Source: Felis catus
Lineage: Eukaryota
DNA length: 64,000 nt
Direction of reading: 5' to 3'
Assembly: GCF_018350175.1 (NCBI RefSeq)
Contig: NC_058368.1
Span: forward strand, 25,794,001-25,858,000
Shown: in pieces, positions 27,331-40,305 of the stretch
Layout of the letters: each line of letters opens with the position of its first letter
How positions within the stretch are numbered: the stretch's first letter is position 1
Translations under genes and position numbers: made by a program
The notes under the pieces: generated by a model
The model's database searches: none
Told to the model about the DNA's origin: nothing
Seen by the model: the letters and a program-made list of their open reading frames with translations, nothing else

Positions 27331-28302
27331 TTTCCTTGAGGAAGCCAATGTTGCTAAAGGGAGGTGCACCAGCCCACATGAGGGTGAAAGGGAGGAGCAG
27401 AGAAGAAAGAGTGTGGCCTGAGTGAAGGCCTGTGGGGCACAGCCAGTGGGGATCTGAACAGGGTGAAGCCTAGAGCAGGAGGTGGCTCAGAGACAGGGGG
27501 CAGCTGCAGAGGTGAGCCCGCTCACGAAGAATCTTTAAGCCATGTACATACAGACTCTGGACTTCATTTCAAGGTCCTGAGGGGGAGAGATTGGAGGGTT
27601 TTAGGCAAGGCTGCGGCAGCAGAGTTTTGCCCCTTACAGCTTACAAAGGAATTGCAACGACTTCTCAGTGGATCTTCACAATAACTCAGTGAGGAGGGAA
27701 GGAGGGCTGTTATTATTTCTATTTGTAAAATACATCTGCATGTCTTGACTGTCTTCACTACGCAGGGGCCATAAGCTGCCCTCCTGCCTACGACGGGAGG
27801 AAATATGGGAACCAGGAAAGAGAAATAAGAGGTGCATTCCCGGCTTCACACGCAGAAGTGGCAAAACGGCATAGAGGGGTCTTAATTGCCCTATTTGTCC
27901 GCCAACCACCAATGTGTTGGCTTTGCTCTGGTTATTTTCCCTTTGATGAACCTTGGCTACGCATCAGCTACTTAGAATCACACAATTAAATCAAGTTCTG
28001 CTTCGGCAACCGGCTGCACATAAATTGTGATATTAGTTGAAATAAGAATAAACTATAAGAAGAGTTCATACCTACAATGGGCAGTATTATCCCTATGGGA
28101 GCGTGATCAACCAGTCAAAAGTCAATGGGTTGTGAAACCTTACTGAAACCAGATGTTAGTTAAATACGGAAGTGTGGGAAGATGAGCAGCAGAGAGAGAA
28201 CAGCTTGCCTTCATAAATGGATTAGGATGAAATACTGGCATTCAGAGAGAAGTACAGCACAGTTAGAAAGAACATCTCATTTGCGGTATGGCTCGTTCAT
28301 AT

Positions 28303-28605
28303 TGATGGGGAGAACAAAGATAAAAAGAATTAAACGTCCTTACAACTTACAGCCCTTTGACAAGTTCTGAGACAGGCAGAGTGATCTTCTGGGAACTCAA
28401 CTGTCTTCATGTTAAGACTTTGCTAAAGCCAAAAGGCAAACTTAGCTTAAGATTAGCCCAACCTCCAGGATCCTGTAAATCTCCCTTAACATATAAAAAT
28501 TCCTTTGGAAACTTCCTTTATCTCTACTCCCCGAGATACAGGTGAGCAATCATCCCCCAAGTATATGGCTCCCTGATATACATCTGAAGGGTCTCTTGAC
28601 TCAGG

Positions 28606-28656
<51 letters not shown>

Positions 28657-29178
28657 TTTTTTTATTTAAAAAAAAAATTTTTTTTTCAACGTTTATTTAC
28701 TTTTTTGGGGACAGAGAGAGACAGAGCATGAACGGGGGAGGGGCAGAGAGAGAGGGAGACACAGAATCAGAAACAGGCTCCAGGCTCTGAGCCATCAGCC
28801 CAGAGCCTGACGCGGGGCTCGAACTCACGGACCGCGAGATCATGACCTGGCTGAAGTCGGACGCTTAACCGACTGCGCCACCCAGGCGCCCCTTGACTCA
28901 GGTTTTACTGGACAGTAGTAAGTGACCTTTTCCTAACAATAATAGCTAACCCCCTCAAGGTCCTGGAAACCTTACTTTCAAATTCTTCAGAGACTTACGC
29001 TATCCCTAACTCCCTCCCAACTTGGAAGTACATAACCAGCCACTCCTCACAACCCCAGTGCAGCTCTTTCTGTCCAAGGGTCGTGTCCCCGTCTTTAATA
29101 AAACCACCCTTTTGCACCAAAGATGCCTCAAGAATTCTTTCTTTACTGTTCACACCAAACCCCGACATTTTCACATTA
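28303..29178 (+). mobile_element. ERV1-type solo LTR with nested SINE
   Basis: TGATG...CAT(t)A termini, 4-bp TSD ATAT (28299-28302/29179-29182), AATAAA at ~29097. Confidence 0.85.
28608..28892 (-). mobile_element. CanSINE, young subfamily, (TTTA)n tail
   Basis: TSD ttgactcaggtt (28596-28607/28893-28904). Confidence 0.97.
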
Positions 29179-30028: not shown

Positions 30029-30307
30029 AATGCCTCCTTATTTCTAACAATGTGGTTTCTTCCATTGAGACTGCTCTCCCTACACTCTACCTGGCAAATT
30101 TTTCTGGATCACTTTAAATAACAAATTGGATGGGGCTGTAGAAAAAAATGACTCTGCTTGGAAACCCAGGTTTTGGGAGTCAGAGTGTCCTTGTCCTTTG
30201 ACCTGTACGTGAATGTTAGTTTGATTCTAACATCGGTCTTTTGCAAGTAGATACCTGCCCAGCTCACAAGGATTCCCCTCTTTTGGGAACTGCCACCTTG
30301 ATCCACC

Positions 30308-30896
30308 TGTCTCGGGCGTGAAAGGAGGAAGCAAGCCTACATAAGAGAGTTTCTTTACAAATACGGTCGGGAGGCCATAAACCAAGAAGAATTTATGCCC
30401 ACCCTCATCGGAGGAACCATAAATGTTGTGCCAGCTGCAAGCCCTCGGCCTGGACTTAACTCCTCCTCACCAGGACACCTGAATTGTTAGCATTCTTCAC
30501 TCCAAAAGGAGCCAAGAGGATTCGACAAATTTCAATCCCTCGTTTGAATGTTAACTCAGTCAATCCCAGGTCACATATTTTCCGTCTGTGTTCTGCATAG
30601 AGGGCCTAAATGAGAACTGCACTTGTGAACTTTTGCCTTTATAACCCTGCCCCTCTCTGTCCTCCTCAGAAAAAGAGTCAGGTTCCTACCTATATCTTTG
30701 TCTCCAGAGTTGCAATCCTAACCGCCTAACCAAAAGGCTATCTGATTCAGGGTGCCTGGGTGGCTCAGCTGGTTGAGCATTTGACCTTGGCTCAAGCCAT
30801 GATCTCACGGCTCAGTTCGTGAGTTTGAGCTCACTGCTGTCAGCACAGAACCTGCTTCTTATCCTCTGGCCCTTCTCTCTCTGTGCCCCCTCCACT

Positions 30897-30994: not shown

Positions 30995-31312
30995 AAAATG
31001 GACCTCTGGCAGCTGTATTTGTATCACAGGATCCACAGATTTTAGAGCTAGTGTTTGACACCCTGTAAAATTCTCTTTTCTGGAAATTTTTAATTGGGAC
31101 CCAGGAAGAATGAGGTCATGCTCATTATGTGTCTGGAACTGCAACTTGTAAGTTTAACAGCTGTGAGGCAGCCATTTTCACTGTGAACCTGCAGAGGATG
31201 CAGAGGAATGAAGTCCACGGAGAGAGAAGCGTATAACAAATCTACATGGAGAAGCAGAGGTGACAGATGGAGAAAGACACCTGGAGGCTTGGCTGACCTT
31301 AATTTCAGTTCC
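30995..31312 (+). mobile_element. Old ERVL-type LTR fragment (LTR33/16-like)
   Basis: agctgtgaggcagccatttt...gaggaatgaagtccacggagagagaagc. Confidence 0.5.
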
Positions 31313-31516
31313 TTTCTTTTATTTTTTTTAAAGTTTATTTACTTACTTTGAGCGGGGGGAGAGGGGCAGAGAAAGAGGGAGAGAGAGAATCCCAAGCAGA
31401 CTCTGCACTGTCAGCACAGAGCCTGATGAGAGGCTCGAACTCACAAACCGTAAGATCACGGCCTGAGCCAAAGTCAAGAGTCAGACACTCAACCAACTGA
31501 GCCACTCAGGCGCCCC
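31313..31516 (-). mobile_element. CanSINE lacking a recognisable TSD
   Basis: Antisense head/tail; flanks unrelated. Confidence 0.92.
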
Positions 31517-32135
31517 TGTTTCACTCAATTCTAATGCTCTGGTTGGTGCAATTATTTCTACCTTTTGGGTTGAGGTGCGTGGGGATGGTCTTTTGGCCTC
31601 CATGAGAGCCTTTAGGAATATGACAGCATATCTTGCCTTTCCTAGTCCATTATCCACAACACCGCTGCTGTCTAGAAGTCAGCGGACAGGGGTTCTGCAG
31701 CGGACAGGGGTTCACTCTGGAGATCTTTGTAGCCAGAGTGAATCTGATCAAGTACTTCCTGATTGGGGGGTAGGGTGGCAGCTGTATCTGGGAGTATCTA
31801 TCTGTCAGCACGGCCTCAGATTGTAACATTTTGTTTTGGGATAGTTCCTAGGTTAAAAACAAAACAAAACAAAACAAAACCCTGGAAACATGGTCCAAAC
31901 AGGCATAGGCTGACTTCTAGGGGAGTTTTTGTTTGTTTGTTTCGCTTCTTTTATCAAGAGGCACTGGCTGCCACAGCTCCTCTTGGCCACCATGTCCAAG
32001 TGTTCAGAAAAAGAAGTTACCATTCTCTTTAAGGGCCCCAGCATTTGGGATAAAACCCCTACAGCTATTCCTTGCCTTTCATGTACAGACAAATCAAACA
32101 GCTTGTCAAAATCAGGAAATGCTAAGGCTGGAGCT
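31517..32135 (-). pseudogene. pol: Degenerate ERV1 pol fragment (RT connection + RNase H N-terminal half)
   Basis: Minus-strand translations APALAFPDFDKLFDLSVHERQGIAVGVLSQMLGPLKRMVTSFSEHLD and DSSGVVDNGLGKARYAV...TSTQKVEIIAPTRALELSE match gammaretroviral APALGLPD..KPF..GVLTQ.LGP and TDGSS..RKAG.AV..TSAQ.AELIALT.AL; frameshifts, stop, 18-bp tandem duplication at 31680-31713. Confidence 0.9.
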
Positions 32136-32496
32136 TCATAAATAGGGCTTTACTTGCCTACCTTCAGTTTGCAGGGCTTCAGGAAAAAAAAAAAAGGGGG
32201 AGGGACAGTTTTAGTTCAAGTCTTGACTTGATTCCAAGTCAAGAGAATGAAAGAAAACTGGAAACCTTAGTTTGGAGAGCCATAGTCAGATATTCAAGGA
32301 AACCGGAATTCAGGATCCAGGTTTATAGGCAAACAACAAACGCTAAGACAATCAGAATTAAATCTAACATCCACAAAGATATATTATTGGAACATAATTT
32401 TTCTCTAAAATCACCCTCATTTCCATCAAAGATAGCCAAAACGAGTATTAATGTGTTTGGAAAACAAGTCCAGTTTTAACAAACTTGGCCCAATAA

Positions 32497-32725
32497 TTTT
32501 TTAAATTTTATTTATTCATTTTGAGAGAGAGCGTGCATGCACATGAGTGGGGAAGGGGCAGATAGAGGGAATGAGAGAGAATCCCAAGCAGCCTCTGCAC
32601 TGCCAGCACAGAGCCAGATGAGGAACTTGAACTCACGAACTGTGAGATCATGACCGGAGCCAAAATCAAGAGTCTGCCGCTTAACCACTTAAATGCTTAA
32701 CGGATTAAGCCACCCAGGCGCCCCC
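32497..32725 (-). mobile_element. CanSINE lacking a recognisable TSD
   Basis: Antisense head/tail within the ERV. Confidence 0.92.
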
Positions 32726-33317
32726 AGGGTGGATTTAAACAGGGAACAACAACGAACAGAACAACAACAAACAAACCAAACAACCAAGTGGGAGAGTGGT
32801 TTCTTCAATCTCCCAGATCCTAGATCAGTCTGTCAGATCACTCCCATTTCGCCAGGCTGGAGCATCCAACCCTCCGAATGGCTGGGTCGTGTGATCCTTT
32901 GTCACTTGGGGATGTCTAGACTCAACACTGGACCCTAATAATCAGTGTTCAATCTCCCAGAGTGTTTACCAGAAAGGCCCTGTTTACCCAGTGTATTCTG
33001 ACTGTTAGGCTGTCTTGCCCAGACTTTGTGAGAGAACTTTAGTTTTACTTCTAAGATCTCTGCCCCAGACCTGGCATAATTTATCCCAACAGAAATCCTT
33101 CGGGTAAATATAATCAGAGTTTCAAATGAGATCTGGATTTCAAATGAGGACAGAATGGCACGCCAGTGGTCACAAGCACCAAGAAAGGGTGAATCTCCTC
33201 CACGGAATCTGCCCCTGGTCCTGATAGCTTGAACCGTCTAGCCCAAGCAAGCTTCCACTGCCTGCTGCTCCGTCTGTCGGAACCCAGGGAACTGGAGGGC
33301 AGAACCTCAGGACAGCT

Positions 33318-33335
33318 GTCCCATCTGGGTCACCA
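33318..33335 (-). other. Retroviral primer-binding site, tRNA-Arg type
   Basis: Minus strand TGGTGACCCAGATGGGAC, 4 nt after an LTR-type ...GGTTACA end; differs by one CpG-type change from the complement of the tRNA-Arg(CCG) 3' end as I recall it. Confidence 0.8.
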
Positions 33336-33339
33336 AATT

Positions 33340-33533
33340 TGTAACCGAACCAACAGGCGTTTACGCCTTGGTGAGTCACAGAAACTGCACCAAGTGAGTT
33401 GTCGCACAAGGAAAACCTTATGTGGAAGCTTGGACTCCTTATTTGCTGCAAATAAAGTTTCCTTTAAGGGACGACTGACCTGGTGCAGTTTCTATGACTC
33501 ACCAAGGAGCCAACACGCGTTGGTTTGGTTACA
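33340..33533. repeat. 194-bp inverted repeat of two LTR R/U5-like ends (TG...CA)
   Basis: 85-bp ungapped arms 33340-33424 and 33449-33533, 67/85 matches by hand count, 24-nt spacer. Confidence 0.92.
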
Positions 33534-33599
33534 GTTGTGACTACTTTTCTCTTTCATCTTCAACCCTTCCACCTCCGTTTGTTTATCTCCAAGCCACAG

Positions 33600-34460
33600 C
33601 TGAATAGCAGGCCATTGTGTGATTACTGCACAAGTGATTTATCTCTTTTCCTATGGATAGAGTCGTAAGTTGCTTCCTTTTTTTTTCTTTCTTGTTTCAA
33701 TATTTCACCAAAAACCCCACAAAGAATATTATATATATATATCTACAACTGCATATAAGTAACGATCCTTAGCGTGTATTTCTTGGGAGTGGAATTGCGG
33801 AGCTGGAAGTTACCCACTTCACATGTTCAACTTTACAAGACAATACCAAATCGTTTTCTAAAGTCGTTGTGTTAGAGTAGGCAGTTAGTCAGGTTCTAAC
33901 AGGATACCTGGAGGCCAGCACGAGGAAGTCATGGCCAGCTATCGGGAAGGTCAGAGGCGGGTCCTGACAGCTCTCCCCAAGAAGCCGGATCTACCCAGGC
34001 AGAACTAAGATAACAGGTGCCACGACAAGCAACCTTGACCAAATTAGGAGGAAAAAGCTTGAAACACTGCTTGCCGCCCAAGTAATACGTATTCCGCCCG
34101 CTAGTTAACAACTGTCAATTAAAGACAGAAACATCCCCACCTTGCGTGCAGCTCGCCCTTGCTCTTCCGCCCGCTTGCGCGCCTGCGCACCTGCGCATGC
34201 TCGCTAGGTCTTCCTCGGTCCTTCCCGCTCCCCGCCTCCCTCTCTAGTTCGCCGGCTCAAGAGTGTGCTTTTTTGCTTTAATGAACTTGCCTGCTTGTGT
34301 CACTCATGCGCTGTGCTGTGTGTTTGTCCTTGAATCGGTTCCCTTGACCAAAAACCGTCCGCGAGTCCTTTGGCTCTGTCTGGCTAGAGGCCCCAGGGCC
34401 CAGGATCTCCCCAGTTCACCTGACAACAATTGTACAAGTTTATATGCGCACCGTCATTAA
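33600..34460 (-). mobile_element. Old L1ME-like fragment split by an LTR
   Basis: ggagtggaattgc...ccaaatcgttttctaaagtcgttg|attgtacaagttta continuity across the LTR. Confidence 0.7.
33870..34428 (+). mobile_element. CpG-rich ERV1 solo LTR, 559 bp
   Basis: TGTT...AACA termini; 4-bp TSD gttg/attg; interrupts an L1; GC boxes and NRF1-like motifs at 34160-34240. Confidence 0.88.
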
Positions 34461-34539
34461 TAGCCAAAAAATAACTAATATTTACAACGCATTATGATAT
34501 GCCAGGTCGTCACTCACTGATAGTTTAATGTTGCCCTGT

Positions 34540-40105: not shown

Positions 40106-40305
40106 TTATTTGCTTTTTTTTATTTTGAGAGAGAGAGAGAGAGAGAGCACAAGTGGGGCAGAGAGGCAGAGGAGAGCGAGAATCTTAAGAAGGTTCTATG
40201 CTCAGCAAGGAGCCCAACACGGGGCTTGATTTCATGACCCTGGGATCATGACCTGAGCCGAAACCAAGAGTCACATGCTCAACTGACTGAGCACCTGGGT
40301 GTCCC
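40106..40305 (-). mobile_element. CanSINE
   Basis: TSD gcagagtattt. Confidence 0.9.

What the first reader, a model, noticed from the sequence alone, without database searches (positions are those of the whole stretch)
33340..33533. Hairpin 'LTR': an inverted pair of LTR ends sits where the provirus 5' LTR should be
Seen: a 194-bp TG...CA unit with two 85-bp ungapped arms (33340-33424, 33449-33533; 67/85 matches by hand) and a 24-nt spacer. It lies 4 nt upstream (minus strand) of a tRNA-Arg-type PBS. Each arm carries an AP-1 motif (TGAGTCA/TGACTCA). The right arm has AATAAA, mostly inside a small palindrome (TTATTTGC-T-GCAAATAA). Known: a normal 5' LTR is U3-R-U5 with only a few bp of terminal inversion. 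Inference: U3 is replaced by an inverted R/U5 copy. Possible origins are (a) an aberrant strand transfer or a replicating non-autonomous ERV family with palindromic mini-LTRs, (b) a second related LTR inserted in the opposite orientation followed by deletion, or (c) a local inverted duplication. Any read-through transcript would fold into a long hairpin, a potential Dicer/ADAR substrate.
Basis: partly seen in the sequence, partly recalled or inferred. Interest (0 to 1): 0.72.

Follow-up and report, generated by a model that had tools for sequence, protein, structure and literature searches.

The report
One-off head-to-head retroviral LTR ends
The hairpin is real but unique: at one spot in a cat-family genome the tail ends of two ordinary endogenous-retrovirus terminal repeats are joined face to face, most likely as a scar of faulty reverse transcription, and it is not a mobile family with palindromic ends.

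Summary
In detail: 67/85 arm matches, 24-nt spacer, fold z = -13, 4 nt from an 18-nt PBS of a decayed gammaretrovirus-like (ERV1) element. The family reading fails. In whole-genome contigs of two independent runs laid at >=80% identity, each arm is a multicopy LTR 3' end (distal about 40x, proximal 12-19x single-copy depth), and 22 and 20 contigs match 33435-33533 and then run on into ordinary upstream LTR sequence. The junction is single-copy and no foreign piece exceeds about 100 nt. So two normal R-U5 ends meet head to head and both U3 regions are absent. The junction also occurs in a run labelled as another organism. Most likely origin (0.45, inferred): fold-back or cross-priming of minus strong-stop DNA, giving a promoter-less provirus integrated through a U5 end. 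Main rival (0.30): two separate insertions plus a central deletion; one subfamily-type site differs between the arms and supports it. No expression was shown (0 hairpin reads in one raw single-cell RNA run, 1% read). A structural oddity, not a new system.

The parts
33340..33429 (-). Proximal arm: U5 and the 3' part of R of the provirus 5' LTR, broken at about the centre of the family's small poly(A) palindrome (inner end approximate)
   Evidence: Abuts the PBS; 12-19x single-copy depth over 33340-33399; gapped arm alignment ends near 33429. R/U5 labels inferred from position and the mirrored AATAAA.
33430..33434 (.). Junction between the two LTR ends, unique to this locus
   Evidence: Depth at 33422 is 7.8 in X11 (own contig only) and 71.9 in X5 (own 34.4 plus one contig ending within 5 nt); foreign matches restart at 33435-33438.
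33435..33533 (+). Distal arm: ordinary 99-bp R-U5 3' end of the same LTR family, inverted relative to the provirus, ending exactly at the terminal CA
   Evidence: 22 (X5) and 20 (X11) contigs have loose ends before 33435 with shared upstream sequence; 15 and 14 have unrelated sequence behind 33533; depth 37-43x over 33480-33519.
33439..33456 (+). Small palindrome that buries most of the AATAAA signal; family-wide feature
   Evidence: local fold; depth peak 124-136x in bin 33440-33459.
33318..33335 (-). Primer-binding site, 4 nt from the U5 end
   Evidence: 17/18 to a published tRNA 3'-end primer; isotype Arg(CCG) recalled; 4-5x depth in bin 33320-33339.
32740..33317 (-). Non-coding leader/internal sequence, low copy
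   Evidence: Stops in all three frames; 1-3x depth over 33040-33319.
32493..32730 (-). Carnivore SINE inserted in the internal region (ends approximate)
   Evidence: Matches many SINE copies of the window.
32200..32492 (-). AT-rich non-coding internal segment, MER4-group-like by eye
   Evidence: Sequence; family resemblance recalled, not tested.
31940..32149 (-). Decayed pol fragment, RT connection region
   Evidence: phmmer E 2.7e-9 to 4.1e-9 against four RT/Gag-Pol chains; that these are MLV/XMRV is recalled from the PDB codes.
31517..31672 (-). Decayed pol fragment, start of RNase H
   Evidence: Weak: best E 0.27, but all 4 hits are RT/RNase H chains and collinear with the previous piece.
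31310..31512 (-). SINE at which the ERV sequence stops; no target-site duplication, so the 3' half of the provirus (incl. any 3' LTR) appears deleted
   Evidence: Flanks differ; no second LTR copy in the window.
33534..33639 (.). Single-copy host flank directly behind the distal CA (old L1-like by eye)
   Evidence: Depth 34.3 (X5) and 9.81 (X11), equal to baseline; L1 resemblance recalled, blast within the window found no match.

Best explanation
A single, old, dead ERV1 locus whose left end consists of two ordinary R-U5 LTR ends joined head to head. SHOWN: both arms are 3' ends of one multicopy LTR family, no U3 is present, the junction is single-copy, the outer end stops exactly at the LTR's CA against unique host DNA. 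INFERRED: it arose in one faulty reverse transcription. Minus strong-stop DNA (the copy of R-U5) failed to jump to the 3' end; its 3' end annealed at the self-complementary poly(A) palindrome, either on itself or on the strong-stop DNA of the second packaged genome, and was extended back through U5 into the primer tRNA. That gives inverted U5-R, then R-U5-PBS, which can stand in for plus strong-stop DNA. The finished DNA has a U5 end on the left, which integrase can use. Lacking U3 it had no promoter and could not spread; both arms then decayed neutrally and the 3' half was later deleted.
For: Only R-U5 is present on both sides and the outer boundary is the exact U5 terminus followed by single-copy DNA. 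The proximal arm breaks at about the centre of the family's palindrome, the natural annealing site. The distal arm is the longer one (99 vs about 90 nt), as expected if it was the primer strand. One event suffices. Each arm carries its own private-looking changes: at 4 of the 18 mismatch sites 67-83% of laid depth has the proximal state, at 33480 only 3-5% has it. Arm divergence (21%) is close to that between the distal arm and the longest listed paralog pieces (13-17 substitutions plus 1-5 gaps per 94-103 nt). Self-priming of strong-stop DNA at an R hairpin is known for HIV-1 (passage and cited titles in PMC3098202); strong-stop DNA priming on the other genome's PBS is proposed for asymmetric HIV-1 proviruses (PMC9278108 passages).
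Against: At 33494 both states are common among other copies (35-39% vs 61-65%) and the arms differ there, which fits two different source copies better than one template; the cross-priming variant is needed to absorb it. Five clustered differences at 33466-33477 also look subfamily-like (distal state 6-22% of depth). A simple snap-back would give a perfect palindrome centred on the small hairpin; the real junction has about 15 extra nt and one and a half copies of it. No target-site duplication can be checked because the other end is gone. I found no paper describing an integrated product of this form, and my prior for the event is a guess.
Confidence: 0.45

Rival explanations
1. Two independent insertions of the same LTR family landed head to head (a plus-strand solo LTR and a minus-strand provirus); the inverted pair was unstable and a near-symmetric central deletion removed both U3 regions and the DNA between.
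For: Arms differ at a site that splits the family (33494) and in a cluster at 33466-33477. The neighbourhood is LTR-rich (solo LTR at 33870-34428). Inverted repeats up to about 25% divergent can fold back and rearrange (abstract of PMC10164571). Inverted LTR-element tandems exist in Drosophila (PMC5932611 section 9). Another deletion has hit this locus (31310-31512).
Against: Needs two rare steps: a family with roughly 55-60 copies at >=80% identity per genome (sum of arm depths) inserting beside itself, and two breakpoints both inside R within about 10 nt of mirror positions.
Confidence: 0.3
2. Rearrangement after integration of one provirus: inversion of the interior between the R regions of its 5' and 3' LTRs (distal arm = old 3' LTR), or a local inverted duplication by template switching.
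For: Explains the exact outer CA (inversion version) and arms of equal age; the small palindrome offers inverted microhomology in both LTRs; the predicted second junction, a large U3 palindrome, would be unstable, and that side is deleted.
Against: A crossover in the palindrome predicts a perfect centre; the distal arm instead keeps 4 nt of normal upstream sequence. A chromosomal duplication has no reason to stop exactly at the LTR terminus (mirrored match ends at 33340/33533). Does not explain 33494.
Confidence: 0.15
3. A replicating non-autonomous ERV family with palindromic mini-LTRs.
For: Clean TG...CA unit next to a PBS; 5 of 129 and 3 of 108 laid contigs fit two places of the stretch.
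Against: Junction single-copy in both runs; longest foreign pieces 94-103 nt, none across the centre; no joint between the arms; 22 and 20 contigs show normal upstream LTR sequence; no TATA/CCAAT in the unit; no second copy as 3' LTR in the window. Copies under 80% identity would be missed.
Confidence: 0.04
4. Whatever its origin, the hairpin is kept by selection as a dsRNA/small-RNA source or paired AP-1 element.
For: 30 consecutive pairs with G-U on the minus strand; 27-nt core with one mismatch; contigs of one RNA run of organism B cover 33324-33639.
Against: The conserved core is not significant (permutation p 0.07); 18 mismatches accumulated, one recent (33422); no Rfam match; 0 reads on the hairpin in 12.9 million raw single-cell RNA records (1% of one run); the RNA contigs run evenly into the flank and may be DNA or intron.
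Confidence: 0.06

Closest known systems
Class I (ERV1, gammaretrovirus-like) non-autonomous endogenous retroviruses of the MER4-group type (group name recalled; no Dfam/Repbase available)
   Same: TG...CA LTR end, 4-nt gap, 18-nt PBS, long non-coding interior, decayed gammaretrovirus-like pol, many more LTRs than PBS-bearing copies.
   Different: The 5' LTR has no U3; an inverted R-U5 stands in its place. No 3' LTR is left.
Self-primed minus strong-stop DNA of HIV-1 (TAR-dependent; passages in PMC3098202) and asymmetric-LTR or inverted defective HIV-1 proviruses (passages in PMC9278108)
   Same: A hairpin in R as fold-back site; LTR asymmetry arising before integration; strong-stop DNA used on the other genome.
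   Different: Those passages describe self-priming as a side reaction and mostly 3' LTR deletions; none shows an integrated U5-R/R-U5-PBS left end. Here the link is inferred from a fossil.
Inverted (head-to-head) LTR-retrotransposon tandems, e.g. Rover in Drosophila (PMC5932611, section 9 read)
   Same: Two copies of one LTR family in inverted orientation at one locus.
   Different: Those keep terminal junctions with a target-site motif; here both U3 regions are missing.
DIRS-1 tyrosine-recombinase retrotransposons with inverted terminal repeats (passages in PMC5006619)
   Same: Retroelement with long inverted terminal sequence.
   Different: DIRS ITRs sit at opposite ends, are part of the life cycle and go with a tyrosine recombinase; here both arms are at one end of a tRNA-primed ERV and the arrangement is single-copy.

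Membership tests
ERV1 / gammaretrovirus-like ERV | pol related to MLV-type RT/RNase H | tested here: met
   E 2.7e-9 for 31940-32149; RNase H piece weak, E 0.27; Pfam found 0 families in three whole frames.
ERV1 / gammaretrovirus-like ERV | 18-nt PBS directly after the U5 terminal CA | tested here: met
   17/18 to a tRNA 3'-end primer, 4-nt gap; isotype not settled by tools.
ERV1 / gammaretrovirus-like ERV | Two direct LTRs with U3-R-U5 and a 4-bp TSD | tested here: not met
   No second LTR in the window; U3 absent; TSD untestable, 3' side deleted.
Named Dfam/Repbase carnivore LTR subfamily | Match to a curated consensus | not testable with these tools
   No repeat library here; literature searches gave no family name.
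Mobile family with palindromic LTRs | Many loci carrying both arms and the junction | tested here: not met
   Junction single-copy in X5 and X11 at >=80% identity; no foreign piece spans it.
MITE / TIR DNA transposon | Multicopy unit with both TIRs and variable flanks on both sides | tested here: not met
   Other copies hold one arm plus ordinary LTR sequence, some with PBS and leader (33284-33380 pieces).
DIRS-like ITR retrotransposon | ITRs at both ends and a tyrosine recombinase | tested here: not met
   Arms adjacent at one end; coding remnant is retroviral RT. A recombinase was not searched for separately.
Hairpin endo-siRNA / TE-derived miRNA locus | Expressed hairpin with processed small RNAs | tested here: inconclusive
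   No small-RNA data; Rfam 0; 0 hairpin reads in X22, low-depth contigs in X19.

The most novel reading that the evidence does not exclude
The locus is a germline fossil of self- or cross-primed strong-stop DNA that was completed and integrated through two U5 ends; such U3-less hairpin-ended proviruses form an overlooked, recurring class in mammalian genomes, and read-through of this one yields a 30-bp duplex able to target its own LTR family.
Probability: 0.12. Interest if true: 0.65.

Novelty: new variant of a known kind. Interest (0 to 1): 0.27.

Why it matters
If the reverse-transcription origin is right, a side reaction known mainly from test-tube work on HIV-1 has left an integrated product in a mammalian germ line, and the signature (U5-R then R-U5-PBS, exact outer CA, one TSD) can be counted across assemblies. 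It would also be a one-step route from a retrovirus to a hairpin against its own family. If it is two insertions and a deletion, it is ordinary repeat decay. Either way it is one dead locus, not a new mobile element.

Tried and rejected
Whole genome not held, so copy number comes from run contigs. Pattern scans of viral and metagenome contigs gave 0 hits; uninformative, as these are not mammalian collections. Rfam on 32700-34500: 0. Pfam on three pol frames: 0. The only other blast hit of the unit in the window (40191-40221, E 8e-4) lies in a SINE, chance. ARAGORN's 9 hits appear to be SINEs by position and gave no reference tRNA. No continuation of the flanking L1-like sequence was found on the far side of the ERV, so no empty-site test. 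Insertion of a second LTR into the 5' LTR rejected: flank behind 33533 is single-copy. Assembly artefact rejected. Arm-to-arm gene conversion of the core not supported (p 0.07). A resemblance of the distal flank's first bases to the PBS was seen by eye and set aside as chance. Earlier-findings look-ups returned nothing on this locus or sequence. Paper searches found no description of palindromic-LTR ERVs or of this structure; the library lacks most subscription papers and repeat databases.

Full report
Observation. The 194-bp unit at 33340-33533 is as described: two 85-nt arms matching at 67 positions without gaps and a 24-nt spacer. The minus strand folds at -108.3 kcal/mol against a shuffle mean of -48.9 (z -13.25, 0 of 200). 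It is the strongest short-range inverted repeat of this arm length in the window. The mirrored match begins exactly at the TG/CA ends. AP-1 motifs are at 33372 and 33495, AATAAA at 33451 on the plus strand, that is antisense to the provirus, and there is no TATA or CCAAT motif in the unit. The window is full of carnivore-type SINEs (felid assignment recalled, and earlier unchecked notes on this genome call it cat-like).

Context. On the minus strand the unit is followed by 4 nt and an 18-nt PBS that matches a published tRNA 3'-end primer at 17/18. The paper labels that tRNA Leu; I recall it as Arg(CCG), so the isotype is not settled here. Then come about 580 nt of non-coding leader, a SINE, more non-coding sequence, and a decayed pol: residues from 31940-32149 hit retroviral RT chains at E about 3e-9, a collinear RNase H piece hits weakly (E 0.27), Pfam finds nothing. 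ERV sequence stops at a SINE (31310-31512) without target-site duplication, and no second LTR copy exists in the window. This is the 5' part of a dead ERV1-type element.

The decisive test. No genome was held, so I laid 4 of 24 listed runs on 33040-33639 at 80% identity: two whole-genome contig sets from different studies (X5, 129 records laid; X11, 108), one RNA contig set labelled as another organism (X19, 2) and one raw single-cell RNA run (X22, 1 read, 1% of the run). Single-copy depth is 34.4 in X5 and 7.8-9.8 in X11. Relative to it the proximal arm stands at 12-19x, the distal arm at 37-43x, the small palindrome at 124-136x, the PBS at 4-5x (the tool warns that summed contig depth is only a rough copy measure). 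At 33422, near the centre, X11 shows only the locus's own contig (7.8) and X5 its own plus one contig that ends within 5 nt. Of the pieces listed (18 of 247, the longest kept), foreign ones are 94-103 nt and none crosses the centre. 22 contigs in X5 and 20 in X11 match from 33435 and continue upstream with shared sequence that is not the mirrored arm; 15 and 14 leave at 33533 into unrelated flanks. The only opposite-strand joint is 33101-33531 in one contig. So both arms are the normal R-U5 end of one LTR family, the distal one is 99 nt and includes most of the 'spacer', and the head-to-head join is unique at this sensitivity. Copies below 80% identity, or filtered records, would be missed. 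X19 holds contigs over 33324-33480 (1 difference) and 33470-33639 (2 differences), so the junction is shared with organism B; at 33422 it agrees with the mirrored arm, showing a recent change in the window's lineage.

How the arms relate. They differ by 21% (K2P 0.25; 95% interval on p 0.13-0.31). If identical at birth this means about 57 My at an assumed 2.2e-9 per site per year, with a wide range of 22-150 My over the values tried (rates are assumptions, and CpG sites inflate it). Only 7 of the 18 mismatch sites appear in the variant table. At four of them most laid depth (67-83%) carries the proximal state, at one 23-34%, at one only 3-5%, and at 33494 both states are common (35-39% vs 61-65%). 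The last favours two source copies; the rest fit independent decay. The 27-nt core with one mismatch is not significant (p 0.07).

Mechanism. Shown: R-U5 only on both sides, exact U5 terminus against single-copy DNA, proximal break near the centre of the family's self-complementary poly(A) palindrome. Inferred: this is the shape expected if minus strong-stop DNA annealed at that palindrome, on itself or on the second genome's strong-stop DNA, was extended back through U5 and the tRNA, and then served in place of plus strong-stop DNA; the product has a U5 left end, no promoter, and cannot spread. Self-priming at an R hairpin is known for HIV-1 (passage and reference titles, PMC3098202), and use of strong-stop DNA on the other genome is proposed for asymmetric HIV-1 proviruses (passages, PMC9278108). 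I give this 0.45. Against it: the junction is not the perfect palindrome of a simple snap-back, site 33494, and no TSD test. Two insertions plus central deletion gets 0.30 (inverted tandems: section 9 and passages of PMC5932611; instability of diverged inverted repeats: abstract of PMC10164571); it needs two rare steps and near-mirror breakpoints. Post-integration inversion or duplication gets 0.15. A palindromic-LTR family gets 0.04.

Function. The minus strand could form 30 consecutive pairs with G-U (13 Watson-Crick only; plus strand 15). Nothing shows it is made: Rfam 0, 0 reads on the hairpin in X22, and X19's flat low-depth contigs run into the flank and may be DNA or intron. No small-RNA data were available.

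Comparison and novelty. It works like a defective, U3-less provirus; it is ERV1-like by pol and PBS but fails the two-direct-LTR test, and it is neither a MITE nor DIRS-like (DIRS passages, PMC5006619). I could not name the LTR subfamily: no repeat library is available and searches gave none (passages of PMC11905727, concern other PBSs). Ten searches found no report of this structure or of palindromic-LTR ERVs, in a library that lacks most subscription papers. Passages of PMC7197481, PMC3185662 and PMC6894440 describe autointegration circles and normal strand transfer, not this form. No supplements were read.

Verdict. Real, unusual, single-locus and probably inert. Interest 0.27.

Noticed in passing
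window 33439-33456: The AATAAA of this LTR family sits in a short stem, like the poly(A) hairpin of HIV-1 (recalled); depth of 124-136x shows the motif is shared by many more LTR copies than the rest of the arm.
   Followed up: partly
window 33870-34428: A separate, CpG-rich (o/e 0.67) solo LTR on the plus strand with a 4-bp target-site duplication matching 3/4, inserted in L1-like sequence 336 bp from the hairpin and pointing away from it.
   Followed up: partly
window 33355-33368 and 33510-33523: Each arm has its own different small hairpin in U5 close to the terminus, in the stretch where the arms differ most.
   Followed up: partly
window 31679-31714: A tandem duplication of about 19 bp inside the decayed pol, seen by eye.
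   Followed up: no
window about 28300-29160 and 30200-30700: Two further LTR-like stretches on the plus strand, recognised by eye only; the region is LTR-rich.
   Followed up: no
run X5, joint 33101 to 33531: One contig joins the LTR end directly to leader sequence about 230 nt past the PBS, suggesting a paralog with a PBS-region deletion.
   Followed up: no
window 31310-31512 and 32493-32730: Neither SINE in the ERV shows an evident target-site duplication; the first marks the loss of the 3' half of the element.
   Followed up: partly
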